From positions 170,475-234,474 of the forward strand of contig CAZIZI010000001.1 in the NCBI GenBank assembly GCA_964543765.1: a DNA stretch of 64,000 nt, read 5' to 3'. The first letter of the stretch is position 1. Each line of letters opens with the position of its first letter. Below the pieces are notes generated by a model. The model worked only from the letters and a program-made list of their open reading frames with translations, was not told the DNA's origin and did not search any database. Shown piece after piece: positions 2,839 to 19,625 of the stretch. The position numbers were made by a program, and so were the translations under genes. This DNA comes from an uncultured Thermodesulfobacteriota bacterium (GTDB lineage Bacteria > Desulfobacterota > B13-G15).

Positions 2839-2859
2839 CTCAAACAAAGGGGGTTAAAA

Positions 2860-3105
2860 ATGGCTGAATATGATATCTTTATCAATAAGAACTTTGAGGA
2901 CTTAAAGGACGAAGAGGAAATAGTAGGAGTTATAAGGGATCTTAGTCCTGGAAAAAAGAAGTACAAGTGTCTATGCGCCAAATTGATCATCTCGAAGGAT
3001 CCTGATAAATACCCGGATAGACTCTGGGTAAGGCTCGGAAGAGGACAACTCGTTAAGGATCATCCTTGTTCGGTAAAGATAGTGGAGATATTGAAACCTT
3101 ATTGA
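2860..3105 (+). CDS. small (81 aa) hypothetical protein embedded between UbiD paralogs
   Basis: ORF with RBS GGGGG upstream, tightly spaced between ubiD-1 stop and ubiD-2 start (2-nt gap); no recognisable motif. Confidence 0.4.
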   Translation: MAEYDIFINKNFEDLKDEEEIVGVIRDLSPGKKKYKCLCAKLIISKDPDKYPDRLWVRLGRGQLVKDHPCSVKIVEILKPY

Positions 3106-3106
3106 G

Positions 3107-4393
3107 ATGAGGCTTCGGGAATTTTTGAAAACCGCTGAAGAAAAAGCTTTTTTAAAGGAAGTGAAAGAAGAAGTAGAAAGAGAGGAGCTTCCTCAGTTAA
3201 TAGAAGATTTATCGAAGGAAAATAAAATTTTGATTTTCCAAAACGTAAAAGGTTATAAGGCAAAAGTGGTGGCTAATCTTTTACCTACAGAAGAGGTATG
3301 GGAAATCTTTTGGGGCGAAAAGCCTTCAGAGGAGTTTTTGAAAAGAATTGAAAAACGTGGAGAGAAAATAAGTTCGCCACAAAAGATGGATGAATATGAG
3401 GAGATTGAGGTAAAAGAGTTTCTTGAGATTCTTCCGATCCTTCATCATTACGAAGAGGATTCAGCACCTTACATAACTACTGGTGTCGCTTCTTCTTGGG
3501 ATCCTCAAAAAAAGACGGTGGGACGTGGGGTCTATAGGATGGAATATCGAGGCGGGAACGAACTAGGTATAGCTCTTCTGAATCCACCCTTAAAGGACAC
3601 ATTGGAGCTTTATCGGGAAAAGGGAGAAAGTATGCCCATAGTGATCACCATTGGACATCATCCCCTGGTTTTTTTAGCCATGGCCATGAGGATCCATGAA
3701 GGGATCGATAAACTGGAAGTGGCCTCTTCCCTGTTGGGAAAGGGAATAGAAGTGATGCCTTCTTTTTCCTTTCCCCAAATAGACATTCCTTCCGGCTGTG
3801 AGGTAATCCTCGAAGGGCACATTGATCCTAAAGACGAGAGAAAAGATGGCCCCCTTGGAGAGGTAAGTGGGTTCTATCACACGGTCGAAAAAAGTCCTAC
3901 CGTGAGGATAAAGAAGGCTTTTTTGAAAAAACCCTTTTATTACTATCACGCCCTTTTACCCACTGGTTGGGAAGCGGATACCTATCTTACTTTTGTAAGT
4001 AAGGCTTTTTTAGAAAAAAAGCTTAAAGAGAATTTCCCTTTTGTGATTAACATAAGGTTTATAAAAAAGACTTTTGGTTCATCGGTGCTTATTCAGGTTA
4101 AAGAAGTAAAAGAAAGACCGTTAATTACTAATTTAATACTTTTTGTTCTGTCAAATCCAATGATAAAAAAATGTGTAGTAGTGGATGATGATGTTAACTT
4201 ATCGGAATTAGAAGATGTTGAATGGGCTATCATTACACGATGTTGGGCAGATGAGGATGTAATAATTATTTCTTATTCTAAGGCTCAACAAATAGATCCT
4301 GAAGCAAAAAGAGGATACTCTTCAAAAATTGGTATAAATGCAGTTAAGCGAGAGGATATAAAAAGAGCAATTATAAAAAGAAAAAGGAGTTAA
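3107..4393 (+). CDS. UbiD-family decarboxylase, short paralog 2 (428 aa)
   Basis: UbiD N-terminal LREFLKTAEEKAFLKEV, core APYITTGVASSWDP...GRGVYRMEY, EVSGFYH; ends KIGINAVK like paralog 3. Confidence 0.75.
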   Translation: MRLREFLKTAEEKAFLKEVKEEVEREELPQLIEDLSKENKILIFQNVKGYKAKVVANLLPTEEVWEIFWGEKPSEEFLKRIEKRGEKISSPQKMDEYEEIEVKEFLEILPILHHYEEDSAPYITTGVASSWDPQKKTVGRGVYRMEYRGGNELGIALLNPPLKDTLELYREKGESMPIVITIGHHPLVFLAMAMRIHEGIDKLEVASSLLGKGIEVMPSFSFPQIDIPSGCEVILEGHIDPKDERKDGPLGEVSGFYHTVEKSPTVRIKKAFLKKPFYYYHALLPTGWEADTYLTFVSKAFLEKKLKENFPFVINIRFIKKTFGSSVLIQVKEVKERPLITNLILFVLSNPMIKKCVVVDDDVNLSELEDVEWAIITRCWADEDVIIISYSKAQQIDPEAKRGYSSKIGINAVKREDIKRAIIKRKRS

Positions 4394-4395
4394 AT

Positions 4396-5061
4396 ATGAA
4401 ACTTCCAGTTAATAGATTAATCATCGGTATTTCAGGAGCAACAGGTGCAATTTATGGTATTAAACTATTGGAAGTGTTAAAGCGCTTAGGTATTGAAAGT
4501 CACGTTGTAATTACCGATCCTGCAAAAAGAACTATCCTTTATGAAACTGATTATAGTTTAGATCAAGTTAAGTCTTTAGCTACTTATTATTATGATATAA
4601 ATAATATTGGTGCTGCCATTGCAAGTGGTACATTTAAAGTGGATGGAATGGTAGTTATTCCGTGTTCGATAAAAACGCTTTCAGCTATTGTTAACTCTTA
4701 TAATGTTAATTTGTTAATCAGAGCAGCAGATGTAACTTTAAAAGAGAAAAGAAAGTTAATTTTAGTAGTAAGGGAAGCTCCTCTTCACAAAGGGCATTTG
4801 GAGTTGATGATGAAGGCGTGTGATCTGGGGGCGATTATATTACCTCCTATGATGGCTTTTTATTTTAGACCTAAGACGTTGGAGGAAATGATCGATCATT
4901 TGATAGCCAAGGTGTTAGGACTTTTGGGAATTGAGTATTCGAAGTTTCAAGGTTGGGGGATAAAGGAAGGAGAAGAGATAGAGAGGTTGGAGATAAATGA
5001 CGTTGAGAGAGTGGGTAGAGTTCCTCAGAGAAAAAGGGAGGCTTATATCCCTAAAAGATGA
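4396..5061 (+). CDS. ubiX: flavin prenyltransferase UbiX (prFMN synthase)
   Basis: N-terminus RLIIGISGATGAIYGIKLLEVLK is the classic UbiX/Pad1 flavoprotein signature; the last ~20 codons overlap the true N-terminus of the next UbiD gene in another frame. Confidence 0.9.
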   Translation: MKLPVNRLIIGISGATGAIYGIKLLEVLKRLGIESHVVITDPAKRTILYETDYSLDQVKSLATYYYDINNIGAAIASGTFKVDGMVVIPCSIKTLSAIVNSYNVNLLIRAADVTLKEKRKLILVVREAPLHKGHLELMMKACDLGAIILPPMMAFYFRPKTLEEMIDHLIAKVLGLLGIEYSKFQGWGIKEGEEIERLEINDVERVGRVPQRKREAYIPKR

Positions 5062-6378
5062 AATTTCTCCTCAGTGGGAGATTTCGGCAGTCTTAAAGAT
5101 TTTTCAAAAAGGCAGATAAAAAAGGGGGTTCTTTTCGAAAGAATCAAAGGTTATGAGGCTTATCGAATAGTTGGGCACTTATTTTTGGAAGAAGATTATT
5201 TTTTGAGTCCGGAAAGCGGCATTGAAGATATAAGTGATTGGTATGAAAAAAGAAGGGGTAAGCCTATTCCCCCTGTTTTAGTTAAATGGGGACCGGTGAA
5301 AGAGGTGAGAATAAATGGTAAAGGGCTCGAGCTTAAGAAGGAGATTCCGGCTTTAGTTCATCATGAAGAAGATGCAGGCCCTTATCTTACTGCAAGTGTA
5401 GTAATCGCTAAAGATCCAGAAACAGGCCGAAGGGGAATGGGAATACATCGAATCCAGATCGTGGAAGAGAACCGAATAAGGATCTTTATCGCTAACCCTC
5501 CCCTCTCATTGTTCGTAAAAAAAGCTGAAGAACTAAAAAAGCCTTTAGAAATAGCTATCATTAACGGACTTGATCCAATAACGATTTTTTCGGCCATCCT
5601 TCCTTTACCAGAAGAGGATAAACTGGCAATCGCGGATGCCCTCAGAAACAAAACCATTCCATTGGTCGAAGCAGAAATAATAGAGTTACAAATCCCTGCC
5701 GAAGGAGAAATAGCCTTAGAAGGGCTTCTTTATCCTGATAAAAAGGAAATAGACGGTCCCTTTGGTGAAAATACTGGTTATTACTTCACTAATGAAAGCT
5801 ATGTGAGTATTATCAAAACATTAACCCGTAGAAAAGATCCAATTTACCACGTAATACTTCCATTTTCTTCTGAAGTCGAAAACCTTATCAATTTGGCTTG
5901 GGAGGTTGAAGAATTTAAAAAACTTAAAAACAAATTTAATTTTGTGAAAAAAGTAAAATTTTATCAAACCAGAATGTTAGCCGTAATTCAAATACAAAAG
6001 GAAAGTGAGGAACAAGTGTCTTTAATAATTGATTATTTTTTAAATCAACCAATAATCAAAGGAGTTATAGTTGTTGATGAGGATGTGAATGTGAATGATT
6101 TAAACGAAATATTTTGGGCTTTAATGACGAGAGTTAATTTTGAAAAGAGTATCTTTTTAAGAAGAGAAAAACCCGGTTGTCCTATTGATCCTACGGCAAA
6201 GATTTATTATAGAGAAGAATCGCAATTTTACGGACTTTATCCTAAGACTACTAAAATTGGAATTAATGCTACAAAACCCCTCGATGGAAAGGAACGTTTT
6301 AAAAAGGTGGAGGTGCCTCTATCTGTAGCGAAAAGATTAAAAGGAGTGTTAGGAATTGATAGGGGAAATAACTTTTAA
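4997..6378 (+). CDS. UbiD-family decarboxylase, short paralog 3; N-terminus (from ATG 4997) and body (ORF 5074-6378) are in different frames: frameshift or sequencing indel near 5100-5115
   Basis: Frame from 4997 encodes MTLREWVEFLREKGRLISLKDEISPQWEISAVLKIFQKGR*, the canonical UbiD N-terminus; body frame continues KKGVLFERIKGYEAY...DAGPYLTASVVIAKDPETGRRGMGIHR...ENTGYY; switch lies in a tttttcaaaaagg run. Confidence 0.6.
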
Positions 6379-9479: not shown

Positions 9480-9556
9480 TGGTCGGGATGACTGGATTTG
9501 AACCAGCGACCCCCGCGTCCCGAACGCGGTGCTCTACCAGGCTGAGCCACATCCCG
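9480..9556 (-). tRNA. tRNA-Pro (anticodon CGG), CCA encoded
   Basis: Reverse complement reads CGGGATGTGGCTCAGCCTGGTAGAGCACCGCGTTCGGGACGCGGGGGTCGCTGGTTCAAATCCAGTCATCCCGACCA; 7-bp acceptor stem CGGGATG/CATCCCG, D-arm GCTC...GAGC, anticodon loop TTCGGGA (CGG), T-arm GGTTCAAATCC; very similar to E. coli tRNA-Pro. Confidence 0.85.
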
Positions 9557-9608
9557 ACCTTTGTTAAAATTAACCAAAAATCGGTTATATGTCCAGAGGG
9601 AGGGGGGT

Positions 9609-10154
9609 TTGGAGGAAGAAAAGTACATTTACCTGTTTTTCTCAGAAGGAATAAAGGAGGTGGATTTCGAAAAAGTGAGATTTCAAATACAAAAAGAGTT
9701 CTTTCTGAAAACAATAGCTCAAATAAAAAAACTGGATCTTCGTCCTTATTATGAGAAGGGAAGAAAGCAATTTTATTCCACCTTGATCCTCAAAGAACTT
9801 CTCAAAAAACTCCCAAAAGATGCGGAAAAAGCCCTGCTCATCGTGGACGTTGATCTTTTTATACCTATTCTCACTTTTGTCTTTGGAGAGGCTCAACTAG
9901 GAGGTAAAGTTGGGATAGTATCATTAACCCGTTTAAGGCAAGAGTTTTATGGGCTTCCTTCAAACGAAGAGATTCTTCAGCGCAGGTTGATAAAGGAAAT
10001 AAAACACGAACTAGGACACACCTTTGGGCTTCTACATTGTTCATCCAGGGAATGTGTCATGTCCTTTGCTCCTAATATTTTAGCAGTCGACCAAAAGGGC
10101 ATGACCTTTTGCGCCTCTTGTAAGGATTTTCTTCTTAAGAATTTGATGCGTTGA
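9609..10154 (+). CDS. archaemetzincin-like zinc metallopeptidase (Amz family)
   Basis: C-terminal HELGHTFGLLHCSSRECVMSF...(16 aa)...CASC fits the archaemetzincin signature HExxHxxGx3Cx4CxM...CxxC; start set at TTG 9609 after GAGGGAGGGGGG RBS (ORF-track start 9561 is a TTG directly abutting the tRNA). Confidence 0.65.
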   Translation: MEEEKYIYLFFSEGIKEVDFEKVRFQIQKEFFLKTIAQIKKLDLRPYYEKGRKQFYSTLILKELLKKLPKDAEKALLIVDVDLFIPILTFVFGEAQLGGKVGIVSLTRLRQEFYGLPSNEEILQRRLIKEIKHELGHTFGLLHCSSRECVMSFAPNILAVDQKGMTFCASCKDFLLKNLMR

Positions 10155-10253: not shown

Positions 10254-10273
10254 GCTTCGGCATGCAAGTTGCT
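10254..10273 (+). promoter_or_regulatory. candidate sigma54 (-24/-12) promoter upstream of the GcvH-like / HybA-NrfD-c3 / two-component operon
   Basis: cGGCATgcaagTTGCTt matches TGGCAC-N5-TTGCW at GG (10259-60), CA, and TTGC with exact 12-nt GG-to-GC spacing; lies ~40 nt upstream of the first ORF start; an NtrC-type sigma54 activator is encoded in the same gene string. Confidence 0.3.
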
Positions 10274-10311
10274 TTTAAATAAGTGGACTTTATAAAAAGG
10301 AGGTGAAAGAG

Positions 10312-10521
10312 ATGGCAGCAGTAAAGATAGCGATACTTATAGCGGTGGGAGTTTTGGCCATAGGTTTTGTAGGGCTTGTGATCTTTTATCCTTTGCTGAA
10401 GACGCTTCAGGGTTGGCTTGAGGGCTTTAAGGTTTGGGCTTTTGGAAAAGAGGTGCCTGTTGAAGTGGGTTTAACCATAGCTGATGGAGGTGAAGAGGCT
10501 AAAGAGAATAAGGAAGAATAA
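10312..10521 (+). CDS. small single-pass membrane protein (hypothetical)
   Basis: ATG 10312 follows GGAGGTG RBS; AAVKIAILIAVGVLAIGFVGLVIFYPLL hydrophobic helix then acidic tail. Confidence 0.45.
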   Translation: MAAVKIAILIAVGVLAIGFVGLVIFYPLLKTLQGWLEGFKVWAFGKEVPVEVGLTIADGGEEAKENKEE

Positions 10522-10537: not shown

Positions 10538-11464
10538 ATGGAGAGGTTTCTGAACAAAAAGTGTCCATTCCTTGGGGAGGAGAAAGTGCTTATTTGTAGG
10601 GCATTTCCTCTTAAAAAGCCCATTCCCCTGGATAAAGTTTATGCCCAGGAGAACTTTTGCCTAAAAGGCAATTACCAGAAATGTCCCGTATATCAAGAGG
10701 TGGCAAAAGAAAAGGAGAAAAGCCCTCATGGAGTATGTCCCTTTGTGGAAGTTGAAAACGTGAGTTTTTGTAAGCTGTTTCCGGCTAAGAAACTCTCTGT
10801 TTCGGGTGTTTATGAGCTCGGAAACCCTTGTACTACTGAGAGGCATCAAGAGTGCATTCTGTTTCTTACAGTTAGTAAAGGTGATCTAAGTTTATCAACG
10901 GAAGGAAGGCCTTATGTGGATTCTAACCGTCAATATCTAAAGGGACATTTTTGGATCAAAGAGGAAAGTGAAGGATTTAAAGTAGGCCTTGATGATTTCG
11001 CCCAGTTTTTGCTCGGTTCCATAAAAAGAATCACTTTACCTCCGGAAGGAACCATCCTGAAAATAGGAGAAGAGTTTTTAACGCTTGAAACCGAAAAAGG
11101 CACTTTTCAATTGCTTTCCCCTTTGGAGGGCGAAGTACGAAGACTCAACCTTGAACTTCTCGAGCATCCTGGCCTTTTAAATGAAGAACCCTATGGGAAG
11201 GGTTGGATTTTGATCATGAAAATTTCTGGTATTCCACTTACTTTAATGTCCCCTGAAGAAGCGAAGCAAGAGCTTTCCCATAAGTTACAATGGCTTTCGA
11301 GGTTCTTGGGTTCGGAAGACACAATGGCAGATGGAGGGGAGATAACATTCGAAAGCCTTAAAACATTAGATCGTGAAAAACAGAGGGTTTTGATCGAGGA
11401 ATTGCTTTTAAAAGAAATTAGGAAGGAGGTAAAGGATGGAGCTTTATCAGTATCAATGGGTTGA
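10538..11464 (+). CDS. GcvH-like (lipoyl-carrier-type) domain protein with N-terminal duplicated 4-Cys motif
   Basis: C-terminal GHFWIKEESEGFKVGLDDFAQFLLG...LETEKGTFQLLSPLEGEV mirrors GcvH (GITDFAQ..LG; ESVKA...SPVSGEV) with the Lys retained; N-terminal has two ~45-aa repeats CPF..(9-10)..C..(19)..C..(7)..C. Confidence 0.6.
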   Translation: MERFLNKKCPFLGEEKVLICRAFPLKKPIPLDKVYAQENFCLKGNYQKCPVYQEVAKEKEKSPHGVCPFVEVENVSFCKLFPAKKLSVSGVYELGNPCTTERHQECILFLTVSKGDLSLSTEGRPYVDSNRQYLKGHFWIKEESEGFKVGLDDFAQFLLGSIKRITLPPEGTILKIGEEFLTLETEKGTFQLLSPLEGEVRRLNLELLEHPGLLNEEPYGKGWILIMKISGIPLTLMSPEEAKQELSHKLQWLSRFLGSEDTMADGGEITFESLKTLDREKQRVLIEELLLKEIRKEVKDGALSVSMG

Positions 11465-12134
11465 TTTCTTCGCCACCAAGGGTCTCAAGTATCTGTTGAT
11501 CTTGGGCTTTTGGCTTGCCCTTTTCCCCTTCTGGAGGCTCCTTATGGGACCAGTTGGCAGAGTTTCCCTTCTTGTTTCCAGGGCCATAGAGGCGCTTTAT
11601 GGATGGTTCAACTTCCCCCAGACTCTTTACTACCATCAGGGTCACACTTGGGCAAAGGTGGAGGATGGTTTGGTAAAGGTGGGGCTTGATGACTTCGCTC
11701 AGAAGCTTTTGGGAAGGCCCGATGCCATAGAACTTCCCCTTATCGGAGGAAAGGTCAGACAAGGCGATATAGGTTGGAGGATAAGGATAGAGGAGAAGAT
11801 CTTAGAGATGCTTTCTCCGGTAAGTGGAGAGGTTTTGGCCATAAACAAGAAGGTCCTTGAGGATCCAAGTCTAATCCTTAAGGATCCCTATGGAGAGGGA
11901 TGGCTTTTGAAGATTAAGCCCGATAACCCTAAGGTTGACCTTCGGAACCTCCTTAAGGGTGAGGCCTTGAAGGGATGGATCCAAGGGACCCTTGATAGGT
12001 TAAGGGAGAGGCTTGGGGGAGAGCTTGGGCTTATGTATCAAGACGGTGGTCTTCCGGTGAACGGATTTGTCCGAATGATAGATCCCCAAAACTGGGACCA
12101 AATAGCAAGGGAATTCTTAATACCTGAGGGATAA
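11436..12134 (+). CDS. membrane-anchored GcvH-like (lipoyl-carrier-type) domain protein
   Basis: N-terminal TM helix LKYLLILGFWLALFPFW; then HQGHTWAKVEDGLVKVGLDDFAQKLLG...IEEKILEMLSPVSGEV (GcvH fold signature, Lys retained). Confidence 0.6.
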   Translation: MELYQYQWVDFFATKGLKYLLILGFWLALFPFWRLLMGPVGRVSLLVSRAIEALYGWFNFPQTLYYHQGHTWAKVEDGLVKVGLDDFAQKLLGRPDAIELPLIGGKVRQGDIGWRIRIEEKILEMLSPVSGEVLAINKKVLEDPSLILKDPYGEGWLLKIKPDNPKVDLRNLLKGEALKGWIQGTLDRLRERLGGELGLMYQDGGLPVNGFVRMIDPQNWDQIAREFLIPEG

Positions 12135-12283
12135 AGGCAAAAACGAGATGTCTCCTCGTTATTACCAAAGGGAAGGTTTCGGTTTTAAACTAAGTGTTTT
12201 CTTAAGTTATCAAGAAACTTGTGCAAATTTTCACTTATGCTAAATTCTCTATATGGAAGGCTATTAAGGCATGGGAGGGGGTT

Positions 12284-13126
12284 ATGAACAGAAGGGACTT
12301 TTTAAAAGCTTTAGGGATAGGGTTAATAAGCATTGGTGTTCGGCCTATTTTGGGTAGAGCGGAGAACGAAGAGTTTACGGAGTTTATGGGAATCCTGGTG
12401 GATACAACTCGGTGTATAGGATGTAGGGCTTGTGAAGCGGCTTGTGCCGAGAGTCACGGCCTTCCCGTTCTTGATATAAATGATACCAGCGTGTTTAAAA
12501 CCCCAAGAAAACCTTCTACCCAGCAACTGACAGTGGTCAATCGTTTTGAAACGGAAAAGGGAGAGGTATTTGTCAAAACCCAATGCATGCATTGTAATCA
12601 ACCCGCTTGTGTGGCAGCTTGTTTGGTTAAGGCTTTTAAAAAACAACCGAGTGGCCCTGTTACCTGGGATAAAAACTGCATAGGTTGTAGGTTTTGCATG
12701 TACAGTTGTCCATTTGACGTTCCAAAATTTGAATATGAAAAGGCCATTCCAGAAATAAAGAAATGTGACCTCTGTTGGGATCGTTTAAAGAAGGGTATGA
12801 TTCCCGCTTGTGTAGAAGCCTGTCCCCAGGAGGCTTTGATATTTGGTAAAAGAAGGGATCTTATCCATGAAGCAAAAACAAGAATTTATAAGGATCCCGA
12901 CAGATATTATCACCATATTTACGGTGAAAATGAAGTGGGGGGCACATCTTATTTATATCTTTCTAAAGTGCCTTTTGAACAAATTGGATTCCGTACCGAT
13001 TTGGGTTATACCCCTTACCCTGAATATGCAAAGATATTCATAGAAAGTGACGATCTCGTGTACATATTATGGCCCGTTGGCATGTGGTTGGTATATGAAC
13101 TCACTAAAAAAGGAGGTAGCCAATGA
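12284..13126 (+). CDS. Tat-exported 4x[4Fe-4S] ferredoxin-type subunit (HybA/HmcB/DsrO/PsrB-like)
   Basis: Twin-arginine signal MNRRDFLKALGIGLISIGVRPILGRA; four Cys clusters (CIGCRACEAAC, CMHCNQPACVAAC, CIGCRFCMYSCP, CDLCWDR...CVEACP); start ATG 12284 after GGGGG. Confidence 0.8.
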   Translation: MNRRDFLKALGIGLISIGVRPILGRAENEEFTEFMGILVDTTRCIGCRACEAACAESHGLPVLDINDTSVFKTPRKPSTQQLTVVNRFETEKGEVFVKTQCMHCNQPACVAACLVKAFKKQPSGPVTWDKNCIGCRFCMYSCPFDVPKFEYEKAIPEIKKCDLCWDRLKKGMIPACVEACPQEALIFGKRRDLIHEAKTRIYKDPDRYYHHIYGENEVGGTSYLYLSKVPFEQIGFRTDLGYTPYPEYAKIFIESDDLVYILWPVGMWLVYELTKKGGSQ

Positions 13127-13204
13127 GCCAGAGAAGGAAAGAAGTAATAAGCTTTATATTTATCCGAACTTAAACCCAAAGGCCCGATCTTTACCCCATT
13201 TAAT

Positions 13205-14320
13205 ATGATAACAGCTCCTATCATTCTTATAGGATTAATCATAATTGCCATTAGGTTTTTTAAAGGACTAGGAGCAGTAACAAACCTTTCCCAAGAATTC
13301 CCATGGGGTTTGTGGATAGCTTTCGATGTAATGACAGGGGTTCCTTGGGCCGGTGGGGCTTTCTGTTTATGCTTTGTAGTGTACGTGGCACACTTTGAAA
13401 AATACAAGCCCATCTTGAGGGCTGCTATCCTTTCAGGGCTTTTAGGATATTCTTTTTACGCTGGAGCGTTAGTGCTTGATTTAGGTAGATGGTGGAATGC
13501 TTTTAATCCATTTATAGGAAATAAATTCGGATTTCAATCAGCTCTATGGTTGGTGGCCATCCATTTCTTACTATATACGATCTGTGAATTTATTGAGTTT
13601 TTACCTGTAGTAGCAGAGTGGTTAAACTTCCAGAGATTTAAACAATTTTTGCATTCAATTGCCTTGCCGGTTGTTATCTTGGGCATTACTTTGTCAACTC
13701 TTCACCAAGCTGGATTAGGAGCATTAGCGTTAATGGCGAAAGGTAAAATTCATCCTTTGTGGTGGTCAGAATTTACACCGGTTTTATTTTTCCTCCAAAG
13801 TATATTCGGAGGAATTGCTATGGTTATATTTGAGGGTTCTATAACACATAGAGTATTTAGTTATCGCATTCCCGAAGAAATACATGAAAAGCATTATTCT
13901 ATATTAATTGGATTGGCAAGAGGATGTGCGGGAGCCTTGTTTGCATATTTGGTTTTGAAAATTTTAATGTTCATTCATGTATACGGATGGAATTATGTCA
14001 TCTCAAAAATGGGAATATGGTATCTTATTGAGGTTATTGGTTTTGGTTTTTTACCTCTTTTTATGCTCGTTTCGGGAGTAAGGAATGAAGCTATAAATTT
14101 GATAAAAATTGCAGCATTAATGGCCATGATAGGTGTGGCAATATCTCGATTTAATTACGTGTTTATAGCTTATAAATGGTATTTACCTTTGAGCGAAAGG
14201 TATTTCCCCAGCTGGATGGAGATTTGGGTGACAGCTACCGTCGTTTTGGCTGAGATATGGGTTCTCAGATGGATAATAAACCGTATGCCTGTATATGCGG
14301 TTGAGAAGGAAGAGGAATGA
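13205..14320 (+). CDS. NrfD/PsrC-family integral membrane quinone-interacting subunit (HybB/HmcC/DsrP-like)
   Basis: 371 aa, ~10 predicted TM helices, typical NrfD-family length and hydrophobicity; immediately follows the HybA-like gene. Confidence 0.7.
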   Translation: MITAPIILIGLIIIAIRFFKGLGAVTNLSQEFPWGLWIAFDVMTGVPWAGGAFCLCFVVYVAHFEKYKPILRAAILSGLLGYSFYAGALVLDLGRWWNAFNPFIGNKFGFQSALWLVAIHFLLYTICEFIEFLPVVAEWLNFQRFKQFLHSIALPVVILGITLSTLHQAGLGALALMAKGKIHPLWWSEFTPVLFFLQSIFGGIAMVIFEGSITHRVFSYRIPEEIHEKHYSILIGLARGCAGALFAYLVLKILMFIHVYGWNYVISKMGIWYLIEVIGFGFLPLFMLVSGVRNEAINLIKIAALMAMIGVAISRFNYVFIAYKWYLPLSERYFPSWMEIWVTATVVLAEIWVLRWIINRMPVYAVEKEEE

Positions 14321-14333: not shown

Positions 14334-14697
14334 ATGGGGCGTACGTCTGTTATTATTTTTGCAGTTATAATGGTAGCGACAGGGGGTTTTGGGTTTAGAT
14401 GTTATAAAAATTGACATCTTGAAAAACCGTTATGAAGGTGTTGAGTTTACCCATGGGGCGCACGTCGATTATGTGGGTGATTGTTCGCGATGTCATCATT
14501 TCAGCCAGGAACAAGTTAGATGCACAACTTGCCATGAGATTATCAAAGTTTATACTTACAAAGGAAGCAAAAGAGGTGCAGGTATTGGCCTCAAGGGCGC
14601 TTATCATGGTCTTTGTCTTGGGTGCCATAGGGAAATGGGAGGGCCCATTGGGTGTGAAGATTGCCATGTGCGAAAGAGGGTGAATCAGACGAGATGA
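14334..14697 (+). CDS. tetraheme cytochrome c3-type protein; signal peptide (ATG 14334) and heme domain (ORF 14389-14697) in different frames: frameshift/indel in a G5T4G3T3 run
   Basis: Frame of 14334: MGRTSVIIFAVIMVATGGFGF then stop at 14412; other frame: four CxxCH (CSRCH, CTTCH, CLGCH, CEDCH) plus His ligands; removing one base near 14385-14395 joins a Sec signal peptide to the heme domain. Confidence 0.6.
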
Positions 14698-16283
14698 GAT
14701 TTAAGTGGAAAGAGAGCTTAAGCTTTAAATTAATCATATGGGTTAGCACGGTAACCACTATTGCAATAGGGGGATTAACTTACGTTAATCTTCAAACAAA
14801 AAAGAAATATCTTATGGAAGAAGTAACCTCGCGTACTGAGCAATTAAGTGATGTGATAGTGCGAGGTCTTTGGTATGATATGTTGCACAATTACCGCGAT
14901 GCTTTATATCACTCGATAAAAGTAATAGGTGAACAAGAAGGTATAGTAAGAGTAAGAATTTTTAACAAAGAGGGCATTATCACCTATTCTTCGGATCGCA
15001 CTGAAATAGGCCATCAAGTAGATATGAAAGCTGAAGCGTGCTATGTTTGCCATGCGAGGGATAAACCTCTGGAGAGGTTAGATCTTCCAAAACGTACCCG
15101 CATTTTTAAGACTCCTCAGGGGCGAGTTCATGGGATGATAACGCCAATTTATAATGAGCCAGCTTGTTGGCAAGCTCCTTGTCACGCGCATCCGCCGGAA
15201 AAAACAGTTTTGGGAGTTCTTGACGTGGTGCTTTCCTTGAACAAGACCGACGAACGGATAAAACGCTTATTTTACAGGACTGTCCCATGGGCTGGGGTTA
15301 CCGTGGTTTTAATCTCGGTGATAATAAGCCTTTTCTTACGCGAATACGTTTATAAACCCACAAAAAGACTTTTAGAAGGGACAAAAAGGATTGCCGAGGG
15401 AGATTTTGATTATCGCATTCCTGTAACGTCGAAGGACGAATTAGGTGAGTTAACATTGGCTTTTAATGCGATGGCTAAAAGATTAAAGGAGGCAAATTTA
15501 GAGATAAAGGAACTGGTGGAGACATTGGAGACAAAAGTACAAGAAAGGACAAGGGAACTCGAGGAGATTCATAAGCAACTGTTACAAACAGAAAAACTCG
15601 CTGCCTTAGGAAAACTTGCTGCAAGTGTAGCTCACGAGATAAATAATCCATTAAGTGGAGTACTTACTTACATAAGATTAATGCAGAAAAAGCTTAATCA
15701 AACTGATGATCATGTATATTCTAAATTCAATCAATACCTTTCAACAATGGAAAGGGAAATTGAACGTTGTAGTACTATTGTGAAAAATCTTCTTGATTTT
15801 GCTCGAAAGAGGGAACCAAGTTTAAAAGAAGGCGTGGATATTAATGAGGTAATTGAGGAAACTGTAAAGCTAATTTCTAATAGGTTAAGTTTGCAAAACA
15901 TATATCTTGAAAAAGATTTGGGAGAACTTCCTCCTATTGTTGGTGATCCTGCGCAATTGCGTCAAGCTTTTTTAAATCTTATAATAAATGCTGCTGAAGC
16001 GATTCAAGACTCAACAGGTAAGATTACCGTAAGGACACGATATTTGCCCGATGAGAAAATGGTGATGGTGGAGATTTCTGATACTGGCGTAGGTATAAAA
16101 GAAGAGAATCTCAACAAGATTTTCGATCCGTTTTTTACCACAAAGGAAAAGGGCACGGGATTGGGGTTATCGGTGGTTTACGGTATAATAAGTGCTCATA
16201 AAGGACATATTTCAGTGAAGAGCAAAGTGGGTGAAGGGACGACTTTTACTATAAAACTACCGCTTGGGTTTAATGAGGCATGA
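14694..16283 (+). CDS. sensor histidine kinase with periplasmic heme-c-motif sensor domain, HAMP, HisKA, HATPase
   Basis: TM1 LIIWVSTVTTIAIGGL, periplasmic region with CYVCH and CWQAPCH (CxxCH and Cx4CH), TM2 VPWAGVTVVLISVIISLFL, HAMP, H-box AHEINNPL, N/G boxes (LIINAAEA, DTGVGI, GTGLGL); ATGA overlap with the c3 gene. Confidence 0.8.
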   Translation: MRFKWKESLSFKLIIWVSTVTTIAIGGLTYVNLQTKKKYLMEEVTSRTEQLSDVIVRGLWYDMLHNYRDALYHSIKVIGEQEGIVRVRIFNKEGIITYSSDRTEIGHQVDMKAEACYVCHARDKPLERLDLPKRTRIFKTPQGRVHGMITPIYNEPACWQAPCHAHPPEKTVLGVLDVVLSLNKTDERIKRLFYRTVPWAGVTVVLISVIISLFLREYVYKPTKRLLEGTKRIAEGDFDYRIPVTSKDELGELTLAFNAMAKRLKEANLEIKELVETLETKVQERTRELEEIHKQLLQTEKLAALGKLAASVAHEINNPLSGVLTYIRLMQKKLNQTDDHVYSKFNQYLSTMEREIERCSTIVKNLLDFARKREPSLKEGVDINEVIEETVKLISNRLSLQNIYLEKDLGELPPIVGDPAQLRQAFLNLIINAAEAIQDSTGKITVRTRYLPDEKMVMVEISDTGVGIKEENLNKIFDPFFTTKEKGTGLGLSVVYGIISAHKGHISVKSKVGEGTTFTIKLPLGFNEA

Positions 16284-17635
16284 AAGAAAAGGTTAACATA
16301 CTGGTTGTAGACGATGAGGAGATCGTCAGGGAGTCGCTTGTAGAATGGTTAAGGGAAGAGGGATATAATGCGGAGGCTGCGGAAGACGCTTTTAAGGCCC
16401 TTGAAAAAATCAAGGAACGGAATTGGGACATAGCTCTTGTGGACCTCAAGATGCCCAAAATGGATGGTTTGGAGCTTTTGGAAAGAATCAAAAAGGAGAG
16501 TCCAGATACACAGGTCATTATATTTACCGCTTATGCCACGGTTCATACGGCCGTTCAAGCTATAAAAAAGGGGGCTTACGATTACTTGGTTAAGCCATTG
16601 GATCCGGAGGAGGTTTCGCTTTTAATAGAGCGACTTTTAAAGAGTCAAGAGCTTTTAAAAGAGGTTTCCTTTTTAAGGAAAGAGCTTACCAAACAATATC
16701 GATTTCACGATCTGGTGAGCAAAAGTCCCAAAATGCAGAAGATTTTTGAGCTTGCTCGTACGGTTGCAAAAAGCAACTCCAATATCCTCATCCTTGGAGA
16801 GAGTGGGACGGGGAAAGAACTTTTGGCCAGAGCCATTCACAACGAAAGCCCTCGGGCGAATGGTCCTTTTGTGGCTGTTTCATGTGTGGCCATACCGGAT
16901 ACGCTTTTAGAAAGTGAGCTCTTTGGCCATGAGAAAGGCGCCTTTACCGATGCCATATCTCAGAAGAAGGGGAAGTTTGAGCTTGCTCACGGAGGTACCC
17001 TCTTTTTAGATGAGATAGGTGATATAAGCCCGAAGATGCAGCTTACCCTTTTGAGGGTATTGGAAGAGAAAGAATTTACCCGGGTTGGAGGCACAAAGCC
17101 CATAAAGGTGGATGTGAGGATCATCGCGGCTACTAATCGCGATTTACAAAAGGCAGTCCAAGAAGGACGCTTCCGCGATGACCTTTACTATAGGCTTAAT
17201 GTAATTACCATTCATTTACCGCCTTTAAGGGAACGTAAAGAGGATATCCCTCTTTTGGTTCAACATTTCATAGAGAAGTTTAACCTTCAGATGGGGAAGA
17301 AAGTAGAACGTATAAGTGACGAGGCTTTGAGAATGCTCATGCAATATGATTGGCCCGGTAACGTGAGGGAACTTGAAAATACCATCGAAAGGGCTATGGT
17401 AATTACTAAGGGAAAGGCGATAACGCCTGAAGATATTGAAATTCCAAGCCTTCAGAAGAACTTCCCTACGGAGGAAAGCGGAAAGACGCTTGAAGCTGTT
17501 GAAAGGGCGCACATTTTGAGGGTCCTAAACGAAACCGACTGGAATATCCAACGATCGGCCCAGATTCTGGGTATCGATAGGACTACTCTTTACAACAAGA
17601 TCAAGAAATACAACTTAAAAAAGCCCGAAGATTAA
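16280..17635 (+). CDS. sigma54-dependent response regulator (NtrC family: REC + AAA+ + Fis-type HTH)
   Basis: ILVVDDEE...DLKMP receiver; GESGTGKE Walker A; GAFTGA sigma54-interaction motif; C-terminal HTH ...RSAQILGIDRTTLYNKIKK; ATGA overlap with the kinase gene. Confidence 0.9.
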   Translation: MKEKVNILVVDDEEIVRESLVEWLREEGYNAEAAEDAFKALEKIKERNWDIALVDLKMPKMDGLELLERIKKESPDTQVIIFTAYATVHTAVQAIKKGAYDYLVKPLDPEEVSLLIERLLKSQELLKEVSFLRKELTKQYRFHDLVSKSPKMQKIFELARTVAKSNSNILILGESGTGKELLARAIHNESPRANGPFVAVSCVAIPDTLLESELFGHEKGAFTDAISQKKGKFELAHGGTLFLDEIGDISPKMQLTLLRVLEEKEFTRVGGTKPIKVDVRIIAATNRDLQKAVQEGRFRDDLYYRLNVITIHLPPLRERKEDIPLLVQHFIEKFNLQMGKKVERISDEALRMLMQYDWPGNVRELENTIERAMVITKGKAITPEDIEIPSLQKNFPTEESGKTLEAVERAHILRVLNETDWNIQRSAQILGIDRTTLYNKIKKYNLKKPED

Positions 17636-18240
17636 TCTTCATATCCCAAAATCATTGCCTTGAAGTGTGAGAAGAAAGTATGCCCGAGTGTGGCTAAGTA
17701 TATGTGGGCGATAACAAAGGCGAAGAAAGTATAGGCCAACAAGAGATGAACGGCCGCTATGACTTTGATTCCCCCGAGGAAGTTTATTACTTCCTTAAAA
17801 GTAAGGGGATCCCACAGGAATAAACCCGTGAGAATTTGGAGGGGCAACAGGAGGAACATAAGCATGAAGTAAATGATTTTTTGCAAAGAGTTAAACTTAT
17901 CGTCAGGTTTGGGCGTGAAAGGATGGGGTTCCCCAAAAAAATAACGAATAAAATAGTAATTGGCATAAATGGGAACCTTCTTAAGATCCTCCGAACGCGG
18001 TAAATAGACCTTCTGGAATTTCCCGGTGAGTACGTAATAGGCTCCAAGGATGAAGAAAGTAAAAAGTACTAAAAAACCACAAAAATTATGAACTTTAACG
18101 GATCCTTCAAATGAAAACATCTTAAGGGCTTCGGTAAAACGCATTTGAAAACCTGTAAAAATCAAAACCACAATACACACCGCATGTACCCAATGGCAAA
18201 TTCTTACCACTAAAGGATGCAATATTTCCCTCTTTCCCAT
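17632..18240 (-). CDS. membrane di-heme cytochrome b (Ni/Fe-hydrogenase b-type / cytochrome b561 PF01292-like)
   Basis: HPLVVRICHWVHAVCIVVLIFTGF and later His-containing TM helices typical of the PF01292 family; 4 TM; directly downstream of the multiheme cytochrome c gene. Confidence 0.65.
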   Translation of the reverse strand: MGKREILHPLVVRICHWVHAVCIVVLIFTGFQMRFTEALKMFSFEGSVKVHNFCGFLVLFTFFILGAYYVLTGKFQKVYLPRSEDLKKVPIYANYYFIRYFFGEPHPFTPKPDDKFNSLQKIIYFMLMFLLLPLQILTGLFLWDPLTFKEVINFLGGIKVIAAVHLLLAYTFFAFVIAHIYLATLGHTFFSHFKAMILGYED

Positions 18241-18241
18241 A

Positions 18242-19315
18242 TTACTCCTCCTCGTGTTTCTTACGCCATTTGATAGTTAAAATCCTCAATATCCCATGGA
18301 GGCCGACAAAAAGTATGGCTCCAATCAAGAATATGTATCCCAGTATATCAAGCCACCGCCATCCTATCTTAAATAGAACGCTTTCAAACTTTTCTGGTTC
18401 TTTTTCATTTATTAAGTCCTTCAAGTTTAGTAAAGTAAAACGATCGGAACCGATGGGATAAAAATTGAAGAGCCTCGTTAAGATGGAAGGATCCGCTTCC
18501 AAAGGACTTTCTTCATCTGAAAGGAGTAAAATGGGCCTTTTAGTTAATAATCTTGGCGAATGACAAGTGAGACAATCTTTTGCTTCTTCTTTGACTGCAT
18601 AATTATGAGAAACATTCAGCGGTAAAAGTTCTGCTTCAATTTTAACCTTCGCTCCTTCCTTTTTAAGTTTAGAAAGGTATGATTTAAATTCCTCATAACT
18701 CACAAATCCGTCGCCGTTAATGTCGACTTTTTTCCCTTTAGCGGTTTGCCCTTTTACAAATAAAAAAATCCTACTCTCACCTTCCGCATTATGACAAGCG
18801 GTGCAGGAAACTTTTTCTCCTAAGATATGTTTACAGTGGGGGTAACCTTTAGAAAGAAGCTCCTTTTTTTCGTGACAATTTAGACAGGGCAGGTTTCTAT
18901 CTTTAACCTGAACTTGGAGCGTAGGTTTAACGTAGTGAGGGTCATGACATTGATAACATAAGGCCGGATGGCCGCTTGATTCGTATGCTTCTGCTACCTC
19001 CTTGTGGCATAAACTACAGTCAACTCTTCCAAGCTTTTGAGGATGGGGAACATCTGATATGTCATTGTGACAATCCAAGCAATTAAATCCTCCGTGAGAA
19101 GAGGAGGCAAACCGCTTCGGATCTATGTAGAGGGAAGAAAGCCCTCGAGGCAATTCCTCTTTTTTTTCCGATGGGATTACCATTTGATTTCTTTCTTCTG
19201 GTGACATGGATAAGATTTCCGGTTTACCATGACACTCGAAGCAGGCCTCTTTTTCTAAGGCCGATGAAAAAAAGGGGAAACATAACAAAAATAAGAAAAT
19301 TACAAAGCTTCGCAT
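18242..19315 (-). CDS. membrane-anchored multiheme (7x CxxCH) cytochrome c with internal EF-hand-like motif
   Basis: Signal peptide MRSFVIFLFLLCFPFFSSA (ATG 19315 after GGGAG RBS); CFECH, CLDCH, CSLCH, CYQCH, CLNCH, CTACH, CLTCH; DINGDGFVSYEEF matches the EF-hand loop DxNxDGxxxxxE; C-terminal TM helix FLIGAILFVGLHGIL. Confidence 0.75.
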   Translation of the reverse strand: MRSFVIFLFLLCFPFFSSALEKEACFECHGKPEILSMSPEERNQMVIPSEKKEELPRGLSSLYIDPKRFASSSHGGFNCLDCHNDISDVPHPQKLGRVDCSLCHKEVAEAYESSGHPALCYQCHDPHYVKPTLQVQVKDRNLPCLNCHEKKELLSKGYPHCKHILGEKVSCTACHNAEGESRIFLFVKGQTAKGKKVDINGDGFVSYEEFKSYLSKLKKEGAKVKIEAELLPLNVSHNYAVKEEAKDCLTCHSPRLLTKRPILLLSDEESPLEADPSILTRLFNFYPIGSDRFTLLNLKDLINEKEPEKFESVLFKIGWRWLDILGYIFLIGAILFVGLHGILRILTIKWRKKHEEE

Positions 19316-19382
19316 ACCCTTACTCCCGCTAAGGATTAGATTAGCGATGAATTTTGAAACACAAAAATTACCCCTTGTCAAG

Positions 19383-19625
19383 CTACAAGGTGATAACTAT
19401 CGCTCCAAAAGGACATTCCGTCACACAAGTGTAACAACCATGACAACGGCTTGAATCTAGGGAGGGGATTTCGCCTGGATCCAGTTGGATCAAGGCCTTA
19501 CTCTTACAAGCTTTAAGGGCGAGACATTTCTTACAAGCTTTACATAAAGCTGGATCTACCCGAGGCGGCTTATGGGCTTGAAGGTTAATGCTTCCCATCG
19601 ATTTATAGGGCATAAATACCCACAA
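19383..19625 (-). CDS. 2x[4Fe-4S] ferredoxin
   Basis: CKACKKC...C and CHGCYTCVTECP cluster motifs; 80 aa. Confidence 0.7.
   Translation of the reverse strand: MWVFMPYKSMGSINLQAHKPPRVDPALCKACKKCLALKACKSKALIQLDPGEIPSLDSSRCHGCYTCVTECPFGAIVITL

What the first reader, a model, noticed from the sequence alone, without database searches (positions are those of the whole stretch)
10538..12134. Two unusual GcvH-like proteins, one with a duplicated 4-Cys module and one membrane-anchored, leading a periplasmic redox operon
Both C-terminal domains have the GcvH fold signature (GxxDFAQ..LG ... ExxK ... SP(L/V)(E/S)GEV) with the Lys position conserved, so they could be lipoylated or carry another swinging-arm cofactor. 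The first has two ~45-aa repeats, each with four Cys (CPF-x9/10-C-x19-C-x7-C). The second begins with a TM helix. This resembles the LbpA lipoate-binding proteins that serve sulfur-oxidising heterodisulfide-reductase-like systems. Here they precede a HybA/NrfD/cytochrome c3 module, a combination I do not recognise from described systems.
Basis: partly seen in the sequence, partly recalled or inferred. Interest (0 to 1): 0.65.

Follow-up and report, generated by a model that had tools for sequence, protein, structure and literature searches.

The report
Lysine-less GcvH-like partners of a quinone complex
The two genes really do encode glycine-cleavage-H-fold proteins, but they are almost certainly not lipoate carriers; they belong to an undescribed, widely conserved set of cytoplasm-facing partner proteins that travel with a HybA/NrfD membrane redox module and its haem-sensing two-component regulator in more than ten bacterial phyla.

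Summary

The lipoyl/LbpA reading is not supported.
- ORF2's lysine sits one residue after the lipoyl position, and many relatives have another residue there.
- ORF1's lysine is at the lipoyl position, but orthologues in the same operon at about 50% identity have M, T, R, S, G, Q or H.
- The 64-kb window has no lipoate ligase, LipA/LipB, gcvT/gcvP or hdr-like cluster.

Both proteins belong to a GcvH-like subfamily with a C-terminal 'ELGxT(L/M)(A/Q)DGG' motif. The upstream 72-aa membrane protein carries the same motif. ORF2's family was found in 290 species genomes. HybA-like and NrfD-like genes lie beside it in 70 of the 80 loci inspected. Most loci also hold 1-3 further GcvH-like paralogues, a histidine kinase with CxxCH + Cx4CH motifs, and a sigma-54 regulator. 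A conserved sigma-54 promoter precedes the operon.

Best reading: these are non-lipoylated accessory or regulatory subunits on the cytoplasmic face of an Hmc/Nhc/Cbc4-like quinone-cytochrome c3 module. No paper describing this was found. In this window the NrfD and cytochrome c3 genes carry frameshifts.

The parts
10258..10273 (+). sigma-54 (-24/-12) type promoter CGGCATGCAAGTTGCT, about 30 nt upstream of the first gene of the operon
   Evidence: Found in the pattern search. TGGCA(T/C)-N5-TTGC(T/A) sits at the same place upstream of the small membrane gene in L088, L001, L004, L007 (by eye), L008 and L009.
10303..10521 (+). 72-aa protein: one membrane helix plus the C-terminal motif 'VGLTIADGGEE', which is the DGG motif without a GcvH domain
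   Evidence: ORF. Orthologues in 12 loci all keep ELGLT(L/M/I)ADGGE. No Pfam family matched.
10538..11464 (+). ORF1: Cys-repeat GcvH-like protein, 308 aa, no signal peptide and no TM helix
   Evidence: The AF2 model is mediocre (mean pLDDT 65); the GcvH part scores 70-87.
10562..10684 (+). Cys repeat 1 (C9, C20, C41, C49; CPF-x8-C-x20-C-x7-C)
   Evidence: A profile of this module found 136 cluster representatives among 1.84 billion. All five of the longer hits scanned that matched any domain family carry a GcvH-like domain; many other hits are small stand-alone proteins. No Pfam, NCBIfam or PDB sequence match.
10736..10855 (+). Cys repeat 2 (C67, C78, C98, C106)
10931..11278 (+). GcvH-fold domain of ORF1. 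K186 (nt 11093-11095) is at the canonical lipoyl position and lies in the modelled two-residue turn (K186-G187).
   Evidence: K186 is replaced by M/T/R in P0005-P0008 and by T/S/G/Q/H in L011-L018.
11321..11338 (+). C-terminal 'TMADGG' motif of ORF1
   Evidence: T262, D265, G266 and G267 are invariant. The motif aligns with the YQDGG of ORF2.
11436..12134 (+). ORF2: membrane-anchored GcvH-like protein, 232 aa. Helix at residues 18-37 (nt 11487-11546), GcvH domain at residues 64-179 (nt 11625-11972), K121 at nt 11796-11798, 'YQDGG' at about nt 12036-12050.
12284..13126 (+). HybA/HmcB-like periplasmic 4x[4Fe-4S] protein with a Tat signal (MNRRDFLK) and a C-terminal membrane helix
   Evidence: HmcB 329 bits, below the 420 cut-off; HybA 238 bits.
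13131..14320 (+). NrfD/HmcC/HybB-like integral membrane subunit. The N-terminus is interrupted by a +1-nt frameshift near 13159; the intact ORF starts at 13205.
   Evidence: HmcC 341 bits, below the 550 cut-off.
14334..14697 (+). Tetrahaem cytochrome c3 (4 CxxCH). The signal peptide is cut off from the haem domain by a 2-nt deletion in a G5T4 run near 14382.
14661..16283 (+). Histidine kinase (HAMP-HisKA-HATPase) whose N-terminal sensor region carries CYVCH and CWQAPCH
   Evidence: CxxCH is present in all 59 cluster-linked kinases and Cx4CH in 58 of them, about 42 aa apart.
16280..17635 (+). sigma-54-dependent response regulator (REC-AAA+-HTH_8)
17632..19381 (-). Neighbouring CbcBA-like pair: a 7-haem cytochrome with a C-terminal His-bearing membrane helix (18242-19381) plus a dihaem cytochrome b (17632-18240)
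   Evidence: Description of Geobacter CbcBA/BccR in bioRxiv 10.1101/2021.04.15.440034. A similar pair lies near the cluster in 11 of 80 loci.

Best explanation
ORF1 and ORF2 are non-lipoylated, GcvH-fold accessory proteins of a sigma-54-controlled membrane redox module.

The module itself is periplasmic HybA-like Fe-S protein + NrfD-like quinone-interacting membrane subunit + tetrahaem cytochrome c3. In layout it resembles Hmc/Nhc of sulfate reducers and Cbc4 (CbcSTU) of Geobacter, so it most likely moves electrons between periplasmic cytochromes and the menaquinone pool.

The GcvH-like proteins sit on the cytoplasmic side. ORF2 and the 72-aa protein are tethered by one membrane helix. ORF1 is soluble and brings two 4-Cys modules that probably bind metal. 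The GcvH barrel plus the shared C-terminal 'ELGxT(L/M)(A/Q)DGG' peptide would act as a docking or adaptor unit that attaches variable N-terminal modules to the complex. Those modules are membrane helices, Cys clusters and, in other phyla, receiver domains or an acetyl-CoA-synthetase-like enzyme. The unit does not act as a swinging-arm cofactor carrier.

Expression is probably switched on by the adjacent haem-c sensor kinase and sigma-54 regulator in response to periplasmic redox state.

Shown: the fold, the non-conservation of the lysine, the gene linkage, the promoter motif and the kinase haem motifs.
Inferred: physical association with NrfD/HybA, cytoplasmic location, metal binding, and the regulatory or structural role.
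For: Fold:
- GCV_H hits.
- Ungapped alignments to solved H-proteins.

Not a lipoyl carrier:
- ORF2's K121 is one residue after the lipoyl position. In the model the turn is E119-E120.
- In 80 loci the residue at the lipoyl position is mostly S, G, D or A. The following K is replaced by R/T/H/I/A/N/G/V in many.
- K120 of the A1 numbering is not among the invariant or 90%-conserved columns.
- ORF1's K186 is lost in orthologues that keep the same operon.
- NCBIfam GcvH scores of 74-92 bits are below the 116-117 cut-offs.
- No lipoate or glycine-cleavage genes in 64 kb.

Partnership with HybA/NrfD:
- 290 species genomes hold an ORF2 relative.
- 70 of the 80 fetched loci have both HybA-like and NrfD-like genes within 4.5 kb. 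Of the 49 loci with at least 2.6 kb on both sides, 47 have both. Of the two exceptions, L071 has only broken copies and L051 has none within 4.5 kb.
- 72 of 80 loci have 2-4 GcvH-like genes.
- In 34 of 50 loci where NrfD precedes it, the ORF2-type gene overlaps the NrfD stop, most often by exactly 22 nt and in several phyla.
- In Rokubacteria and Nitrospinae MAGs the Cys module is a separate small gene in the same cluster.

Cytoplasmic side:
- ORF1 has no signal peptide.
- For ORF2's family the flank before the helix is net -1.4 and the flank after it net +1.6.
- Paralogues have the order TM-REC-GcvH-like or REC-GcvH-like.

Shared DGG motif.

Regulation:
- Conserved sigma-54 promoter.
- A kinase is present in 56 of 80 loci and a sigma-54 regulator in 54 of 80.
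- CxxCH in 59 of 59 linked kinases and Cx4CH in 58 of 59.
Against: - There is no direct evidence that these proteins bind NrfD or HybA; gene linkage would equally fit a purely regulatory role.
- The window's own gene order (GcvH-like genes before HybA) differs from the common order, so the translational-coupling argument does not apply here.
- NrfD-type subunits have no cofactor to carry electrons across the membrane, so a redox role for the cytoplasmic Cys modules has no obvious wire.
- ORF1 of this lineage does have a lysine at the lipoyl position within the sequence ETEK, so lipoylation of this one protein cannot be excluded.
- The ORF1 model is of low confidence in the Cys region, so metal binding is only a sequence-pattern inference.
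- The NrfD and c3 genes are frameshifted in this window, so the module may be decaying here, or the assembly may have errors.
- A Pfam entry that I could not read (PF28260, listed) may already describe part of this family.
Confidence: 0.6

Rival explanations
1. Signal-transduction adaptors. The GcvH-like/DGG proteins work mainly with the haem-sensor kinase and the sigma-54 regulator, for example as membrane-tethered partners or phospho-controlled modulators. HybA/NrfD is then the regulated target or the redox input rather than their structural host.
For: - A kinase and a sigma-54 regulator accompany the cluster in most loci.
- Bacteroidota, Ignavibacteria and Calditrichia loci encode REC-GcvH-like and TM-REC-GcvH-like proteins, and a second kinase, inside the operon.
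- The DGG peptide has low confidence in the model (blocks at 62-65), as expected for a segment that orders on binding a partner.
Against: - The tightest and most constant linkage is to NrfD (22-nt overlap), not to the kinase. The kinase can lie on either strand and at variable distance.
- Three to four paralogues per operon, with Cys modules, look more like stoichiometric subunits than regulators.
Confidence: 0.2
2. One reading: lipoylated (or otherwise acylated) swinging-arm carriers analogous to LbpA, shuttling a substrate or reducing equivalents to the membrane complex.
For: - True H-protein fold.
- ORF1 of the window and its four closest relatives have K at the exact lipoyl position in 'ETEK'.
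- Some related operons encode an AMP-forming acyl-CoA-synthetase-like enzyme fused to a GcvH-like domain.
Against: - The lysine is absent from orthologues and from all other paralogues examined.
- ORF2's lysine is displaced by one residue and is not conserved. From established knowledge of lipoyl domains, not tested here: the modified lysine normally sits at the tip of the hairpin.
- There is no lipoate ligase, LipA/B, LipS-type radical SAM or hdr-like cluster in 64 kb.
- LbpA's two conserved cysteines are absent from both H-domains.
- The GcvH-like domain fused to the synthetase has E-G at the turn.
Confidence: 0.07
3. Ordinary GcvH paralogues serving glycine cleavage or the lipoate relay, placed here by chance.
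For: Databases name them 'glycine cleavage system H protein'. The best NCBIfam hits are the GcvH models.
Against: - Scores are below the curated GcvH cut-offs.
- The proteins carry extra N- and C-terminal modules.
- There is no gcvT or gcvP in the window.
- Linkage to HybA/NrfD is seen in 70 of 80 loci from many phyla.
Confidence: 0.02

Closest known systems
GcvH, the H-protein of the glycine cleavage system (e.g. pea 1dxm, T. thermophilus 1onl)
   Different: - No conserved lipoyl lysine at family level.
- Added membrane helix or Cys repeats at the N-terminus.
- Added helical extension with a DGG motif at the C-terminus.
- Never seen next to gcvT/gcvP here; instead next to HybA/NrfD.
- Below the NCBIfam cut-offs.
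LbpA lipoate-binding proteins of the sulfur-oxidising Hdr-like system (PMC6067878)
   Same: GcvH-like proteins recruited to a redox system other than glycine cleavage, often in two or three copies per cluster.
   Different: LbpA is a single-domain protein with a strictly conserved lysine and two conserved cysteines. It is encoded with hdr-like genes, a dedicated LplA-like ligase and two radical-SAM maturases. None of these features is present here.
Hmc / Nhc complexes of sulfate reducers and Cbc4 (CbcSTU) of Geobacter: multihaem cytochrome + HybA-like Fe-S protein + NrfD-like membrane protein
   Same: The best NCBIfam matches of the two downstream proteins are HmcB and HmcC. The layout is a periplasmic Tat-exported Fe-S protein, a cofactor-less NrfD subunit and a c3-type cytochrome. 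The Cbc4 composition is taken from PMC11434368 and PMC13591261.
   Different: - Scores are below the HmcB/HmcC equivalog cut-offs.
- There are no HmcE/HmcF-type cytochrome b or CCG subunits.
- The cytochrome is a small tetrahaem protein, and in most phyla no cytochrome gene is in the operon.
- The 2-4 GcvH-like proteins have no counterpart in any described NrfD complex. The NrfD review PMC8076601 contains no mention of glycine, GcvH or lipo-.
Geobacter sulfurreducens cbcBA operon and its sigma-54 regulator BccR (bioRxiv 10.1101/2021.04.15.440034)
   Same: - A 7-haem cytochrome with a C-terminal His-bearing helix plus a 4-helix dihaem cytochrome b lie next to a sigma-54-dependent response regulator.
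- A sigma-54 promoter heads an operon that starts with small hypothetical genes.
- Part of the taxonomic spread is the same: Caldithrix, Bacteroidetes and deltaproteobacteria.
   Different: - As described, the Geobacter operon has no HybA/NrfD or GcvH-like genes.
- Orthology of the window's regulator to BccR could not be tested, because no Geobacter sequence was accessible.
- The CbcBA-like pair accompanies the GcvH/HybA/NrfD cluster in only 11 of 80 loci.
Other barrel-sandwich (lipoyl-like) domains used as structural parts of membrane machines, e.g. NqrA and RnfC N-terminal domains
   Different: They are only distant fold relatives. The proteins here are close sequence relatives of GcvH itself.

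Membership tests
GcvH (glycine cleavage H-protein) | H-protein fold | tested here: met
GcvH (glycine cleavage H-protein) | Lipoyl-lysine at the tip of the hairpin (ESVK), conserved in the family | tested here: not met
   ORF2: the K is one residue late and is variable. ORF1: a K is present in the window but is replaced in orthologues.
GcvH (glycine cleavage H-protein) | Score above the curated equivalog cut-off (TIGR00527 115.85 bits; NF002270 117 bits) | tested here: not met
   74-92 bits.
GcvH (glycine cleavage H-protein) | Genomic or functional link to gcvT, gcvP or lpd | tested here: not met
   None in the 64-kb window, and none next to homologues in the 80 loci, which carry HybA/NrfD instead. 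The rest of the genome was not available.
LbpA (sHdr-associated lipoate-binding protein) | Strictly conserved lipoyl-lysine (PMC6067878) | tested here: not met
LbpA (sHdr-associated lipoate-binding protein) | Two strictly conserved cysteines in the H-domain (N- and C-terminal) | tested here: not met
   ORF2 has no Cys. ORF1 has none after residue 106.
LbpA (sHdr-associated lipoate-binding protein) | Encoded in or next to an hdr-like cluster with an LplA-like ligase and two radical-SAM maturases | tested here: not met
   There is no BPL_LplA_LipB domain. The only radical-SAM protein (47571-49028) is of the SPASM/maturase type and lies 35 kb away. A lone CCG-domain fragment lies at 46849-47349.
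LbpA (sHdr-associated lipoate-binding protein) | Actual lipoylation of the protein | not testable with these tools
   Needs mass spectrometry.
NrfD-type membrane redox complexes (Hmc/Nhc/Cbc4-like) | NrfD-like cofactor-less membrane subunit beside a HybA/NrfC-type 4x[4Fe-4S] periplasmic subunit | tested here: met
   Tat motif MNRRDFLK.
NrfD-type membrane redox complexes (Hmc/Nhc/Cbc4-like) | Periplasmic multihaem cytochrome partner | tested here: inconclusive
   A tetrahaem c3 gene is present (4 CxxCH), but it is frameshifted here and absent from the operon in most phyla (11 of 80 loci).
Hmc complex proper (HmcABCDEF) | HmcB/HmcC equivalog scores; 16-haem HmcA; HmcE cytochrome b; HmcF CCG protein | tested here: not met
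   329 bits against a cut-off of 420, and 341 against 550. No HmcA, HmcE or HmcF equivalents in the operon.
CbcBA/BccR-type module (neighbouring genes) | 7-haem cytochrome with a C-terminal His-bearing helix + dihaem cytochrome b + adjacent sigma-54 regulator | tested here: inconclusive
   The architecture matches the published description. Sequence orthology to the Geobacter proteins could not be tested.

The most novel reading that the evidence does not exclude
The cluster defines a previously undescribed class of NrfD-type membrane complex, found in more than ten phyla. In it, two to four lysine-less GcvH-fold proteins dock through a shared DGG peptide onto the cytoplasmic face of a HybA/NrfD quinone module. 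They carry Fe-S-like Cys modules, receiver domains or an adenylating enzyme. The complex would thereby couple the quinone pool or periplasmic redox state to a cytoplasmic process: signalling, gating of the NrfD ion path, or a new chemistry. The whole would be under a dihaem sensor kinase and a sigma-54 regulator. The H-protein fold would here be reused as a structural adaptor in respiration.
Probability: 0.4. Interest if true: 0.78.

Novelty: new variant of a known kind. Interest (0 to 1): 0.6.

Why it matters
NrfD/HybA modules are the common membrane anchor of many anaerobic respiratory enzymes. How they couple to the cytoplasm and to ion translocation is an open question. A conserved set of cytoplasmic partner proteins, present from Thermodesulfobacteriota and Syntrophales to Bacteroidota, Calditrichota and Gemmatimonadota, would be a new handle on that question. 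The fixed company of a haem-c sensor kinase, and in several lineages of CbcBA-like cytochromes, points to a role at low redox potential, possibly in extracellular or syntrophic electron transfer. The finding also warns that hundreds of database entries named 'glycine cleavage system H protein' are not H-proteins in function.

Tried and rejected
- A word-indexed homology search with the Cys-repeat region alone found nothing, not even the known orthologues. The exhaustive profile search replaced it.
- Pfam, NCBIfam and PDB sequence searches gave no significant match for the two kinds of Cys module (CPF-type, and the CxWMxAG...CxxC type of paralogues) or for the kinase sensor region.
I did not fold-search the ORF1 model because its Cys region has low confidence.
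- Literature searches found no paper on this cluster. The term sets were GcvH-like + NrfD; glycine cleavage + NrfD/HybA/sigma-54; NrfD-like + glycine cleavage; and GCV_H + response regulator. The NrfD review does not mention it.
- I asked whether the first genes of the Geobacter cbcBA operon (GSU0597, GSU3489, GSU0596) are homologues of the small DGG protein or of the REC-GcvH-like proteins.
- I asked whether a second sigma-54 promoter precedes the CbcBA-like operon. None was evident at 19600-20000.
- Pfam family PF28260, listed for about half of the ORF2 relatives, is not in the local library, so its definition is unknown to me.
Full report
**What is there.**
The region holds a plus-strand operon. 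Its genes, in order, are:
- a 72-aa one-helix protein (10303-10521);
- ORF1 (10538-11464, 308 aa);
- ORF2 (11436-12134, 232 aa);
- a HybA/HmcB-like Tat-exported Fe-S protein (12284-13126);
- an NrfD/HmcC/HybB-like membrane protein (to 14320);
- a tetrahaem cytochrome c3 (to 14697);
- a HAMP histidine kinase (14661-16283);
- a sigma-54-dependent response regulator (16280-17635).

Both ORF1 and ORF2 hit Pfam GCV_H at E about 1e-23. ORF1's N-terminal 120 residues are two copies of a four-Cys unit, CPF-x8-C-x19/20-C-x7-C. The copies align with a score of 85; 2000 shuffles gave 22.7 +/- 4.5 and none reached 85. All eight Cys are invariant in nine orthologues. ORF2 has a hydrophobic helix at residues 18-37 and no cysteine.

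**Is the H-domain a lipoyl carrier?**

ORF1's K186 does align with the lipoyl lysine (LETEK vs LESVK). However, orthologues at 47-49% identity that keep the whole operon have M, T or R there. More distant orthologues have T, S, G, Q or H. Where the hairpin motif could be located in the other paralogues in these clusters, none has a lysine at the lipoyl position, apart from three loci (L068, L071, L083).

NCBIfam scores against the GcvH models (74-92 bits) are below the curated cut-offs. Scanning every sizeable ORF of the window found no lipoate ligase, LipA/LipB, gcvT/gcvP or hdr-like cluster. LbpA is defined by a strictly conserved lysine, two conserved cysteines, hdr-like neighbours and dedicated maturation genes (PMC6067878). 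None of these applies. Lipoylation of ORF1 in this particular lineage cannot be excluded from sequence, but the conserved function of the family cannot depend on it.

**What the family is.**
ORF1, ORF2 and their paralogues share a helical extension after the H-domain that ends in the motif (E)LGxT(L/M/Y)(A/Q)DGG, followed by a W...F helix. The 72-aa protein that opens the operon is simply a membrane helix plus this motif (ELGLT(L/M/I)ADGGE), conserved in 12 loci. So the motif is a portable module.

ORF1's full architecture is rare: 8 clusters among 5.8 billion sequences. The Cys module itself is wider. A profile search of 1.84 billion representatives found 136. All five of the longer hits scanned that matched any domain family carry a GcvH-like domain. 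Many other hits are 60-130-aa stand-alone proteins, and one is fused to NUDIX.

ORF2's family is large: 439 clusters and 290 species genomes. It spans Thermodesulfobacteriota, Syntrophales, Myxococcales, Bacteroidota, Ignavibacteria, Calditrichota, KSB1, Gemmatimonadota, Planctomycetota, Rokubacteria, Nitrospinae and others.

**Context.**
- In 70 of the 80 fetched loci, HybA-like and NrfD-like genes lie within 4.5 kb. Of the 49 loci with at least 2.6 kb on both sides, 47 have both. Of the other two, L071 has only broken copies and L051 has none within 4.5 kb.
- 72 of 80 loci carry two to four GcvH-like genes.
- 56 loci carry the kinase and 54 the sigma-54 regulator.
- The commonest order is [TM-GcvH-like] HybA NrfD [ORF2-type] [Cys4-GcvH-like] kinase regulator.
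- In 34 of 50 such loci the ORF2-type start overlaps the NrfD stop, most often by exactly 22 nt. This is the pattern of translationally coupled subunits.
- The window's order (GcvH-like genes first, cytochrome c3 after NrfD) is limited to its near relatives.
- In Rokubacteria and Nitrospinae MAGs the Cys module is a separate small gene in the same cluster.
- Other paralogues replace the N-terminus by a second kind of Cys module (CxWMxAG-x6-C-x5-C-x2-C), by REC or TM-REC, or by an AMP-forming acetyl-CoA-synthetase-like enzyme.

**Side of the membrane.**
ORF1 has no signal peptide. In ORF2's family the segment before the helix is net negative and the 15 residues after it net positive; 37 of 48 sequences have more K+R after the helix. 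Paralogues with TM-REC-GcvH-like order must have the receiver, and hence the H-domain, in the cytoplasm. I infer that all the GcvH-like domains face the cytoplasm, while HybA (Tat motif) and c3 are periplasmic.

**Regulation.**
A -24/-12 element (CGGCATGCAAGTTGCT, 10258-10273) lies about 30 nt upstream of the first gene. It is conserved as TGGCA(T/C)-N5-TTGC(T/A) in relatives down to about 50% protein identity. Every one of the 59 cluster-linked kinases has a CxxCH motif in its N-terminal sensor region, and 58 also have a Cx4CH motif about 42 residues away. This suggests a haem-c redox sensor.

Convergent with the regulator lies a second gene pair:
- a 7-haem cytochrome whose C-terminal helix carries a His;
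- a four-helix cytochrome b whose best NCBIfam match is the 'thiosulfate reductase' cytochrome b subunit.

This matches the published description of Geobacter CbcBA, which the sigma-54 regulator BccR induces at low redox potential (bioRxiv 10.1101/2021.04.15.440034). That is a lead, not a test, because I could not compare sequences with Geobacter.

**Interpretation.**
The best-supported reading (confidence about 0.6) is that these are lysine-less H-fold accessory or adaptor proteins on the cytoplasmic face of an Hmc/Nhc/Cbc4-like quinone-cytochrome module, expressed under a redox-sensing two-component system. A purely signalling role is the main rival (0.2). The lipoyl-carrier reading is weak (0.07) and ordinary GcvH is excluded for practical purposes (0.02).

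The mechanism by which a cytoplasmic partner would act on a cofactor-less NrfD subunit is unknown. Gating or regulating the NrfD ion path, and recruiting enzymes or receiver domains to the complex, are the options I consider most plausible.

**Caveats.**
- Relative to the closest relative (L088), the window has a +1-nt insertion near 13159 (NrfD N-terminus) and a 2-nt deletion near 14382 in a G5T4 run. The deletion separates the c3 signal peptide from its haem domain. These may be assembly errors or real decay.
- Identity to L088 drops from 92.5% over the first three genes to 78.8% over HybA-NrfD-c3. Contigs of three other relatives end inside ORF2, and one relative has unrelated genes after ORF2. 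The junction after ORF2 therefore looks variable between strains.
- The ORF1 model is poor in the Cys region.
- No paper describing the cluster was found. However, the library is partial, and a Pfam entry that I could not read (PF28260) may cover part of the family.

Noticed in passing
window 17632-19625 (-): CbcBA-like operon: a small 2x[4Fe-4S]-type ferredoxin (19383-19625), a 7-CxxCH cytochrome with a C-terminal His-bearing membrane helix and an EF-hand-like loop (18242-19381), and a dihaem cytochrome b (17632-18240). It is convergent with the sigma-54 regulator. The architecture matches Geobacter CbcBA/BccR as published.
   Followed up: partly
window 14661-15380 (+), and kinases in L004-L087: The sensor region of the histidine kinase carries CxxCH and Cx4CH about 42 aa apart. 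CxxCH is present in 59 of 59 cluster-associated kinases across phyla and Cx4CH in 58 of 59. It is probably a dihaem c-type periplasmic redox sensor. No Pfam model matches it.
   Followed up: partly
window ~13159 and ~14382: Two frameshifts relative to the nearest relative L088: +1 nt in the NrfD N-terminus, and -2 nt in a G5T4 run that splits the cytochrome c3 signal peptide from the haem domain. These are either assembly errors or pseudogenisation.
   Followed up: partly
window ~12135-12220; L001-L003, L088, L089: Strain-level breakpoint just after ORF2. Identity to L088 falls from 92.5% to 78.8%, three relatives' contigs end inside ORF2, and L089 continues with unrelated genes.
   Followed up: no
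L011-L085 (e.g. L052 7959-8684 and its upstream NrfD): The start of the ORF2-type gene overlaps the NrfD stop by exactly 22 nt in many loci from different phyla. This dual-coding overlap may partly explain the very conserved N-terminus MEGFxYVDIFATKG.
   Followed up: partly
L040 6765-9422, L048 9572-12046, L037 2162-4396; L067 3710-5803: Inside the same operons: an AMP-forming acetyl-CoA-synthetase-like enzyme fused to a GcvH-like domain that ends in a DGG or DGE motif, and REC-GcvH-like and TM-REC-GcvH-like proteins.
   Followed up: no
window 165-6378 (+): Phenylphosphate-carboxylase-like cluster: UPF0261, three UbiD-family subunits, a Phenyl_P_gamma subunit and a UbiX-type flavoprotein.
   Followed up: no
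window 35006-40131 (-) and 53566-56176 (+): Xanthine-dehydrogenase-family molybdenum hydroxylase (2Fe-2S, MoCo and FAD/pyridine-nucleotide subunits), together with the selenium-dependent Mo-cofactor maturation genes YqeB and YqeC.
   Followed up: no
window 40225-43907 (+): The type I restriction-modification genes look fragmented: HsdR is in two pieces (ResIII 420 aa and EcoEI_R_C 204 aa) and HsdM is only 326 aa. They are followed by about 3 kb of small ORFs.
   Followed up: no
window 9480-9556 (-): tRNA-Pro (CGG) between plsY-like and archaemetzincin-like genes. The archaemetzincin gene (9561-10154) is syntenic with the operon in all close relatives.
   Followed up: no
window 26374-28203 (+): Unusual fusion of an HMGL-like (homocitrate/isopropylmalate synthase family) domain with a C-terminal Cache/PDC sensor domain.
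   Followed up: no
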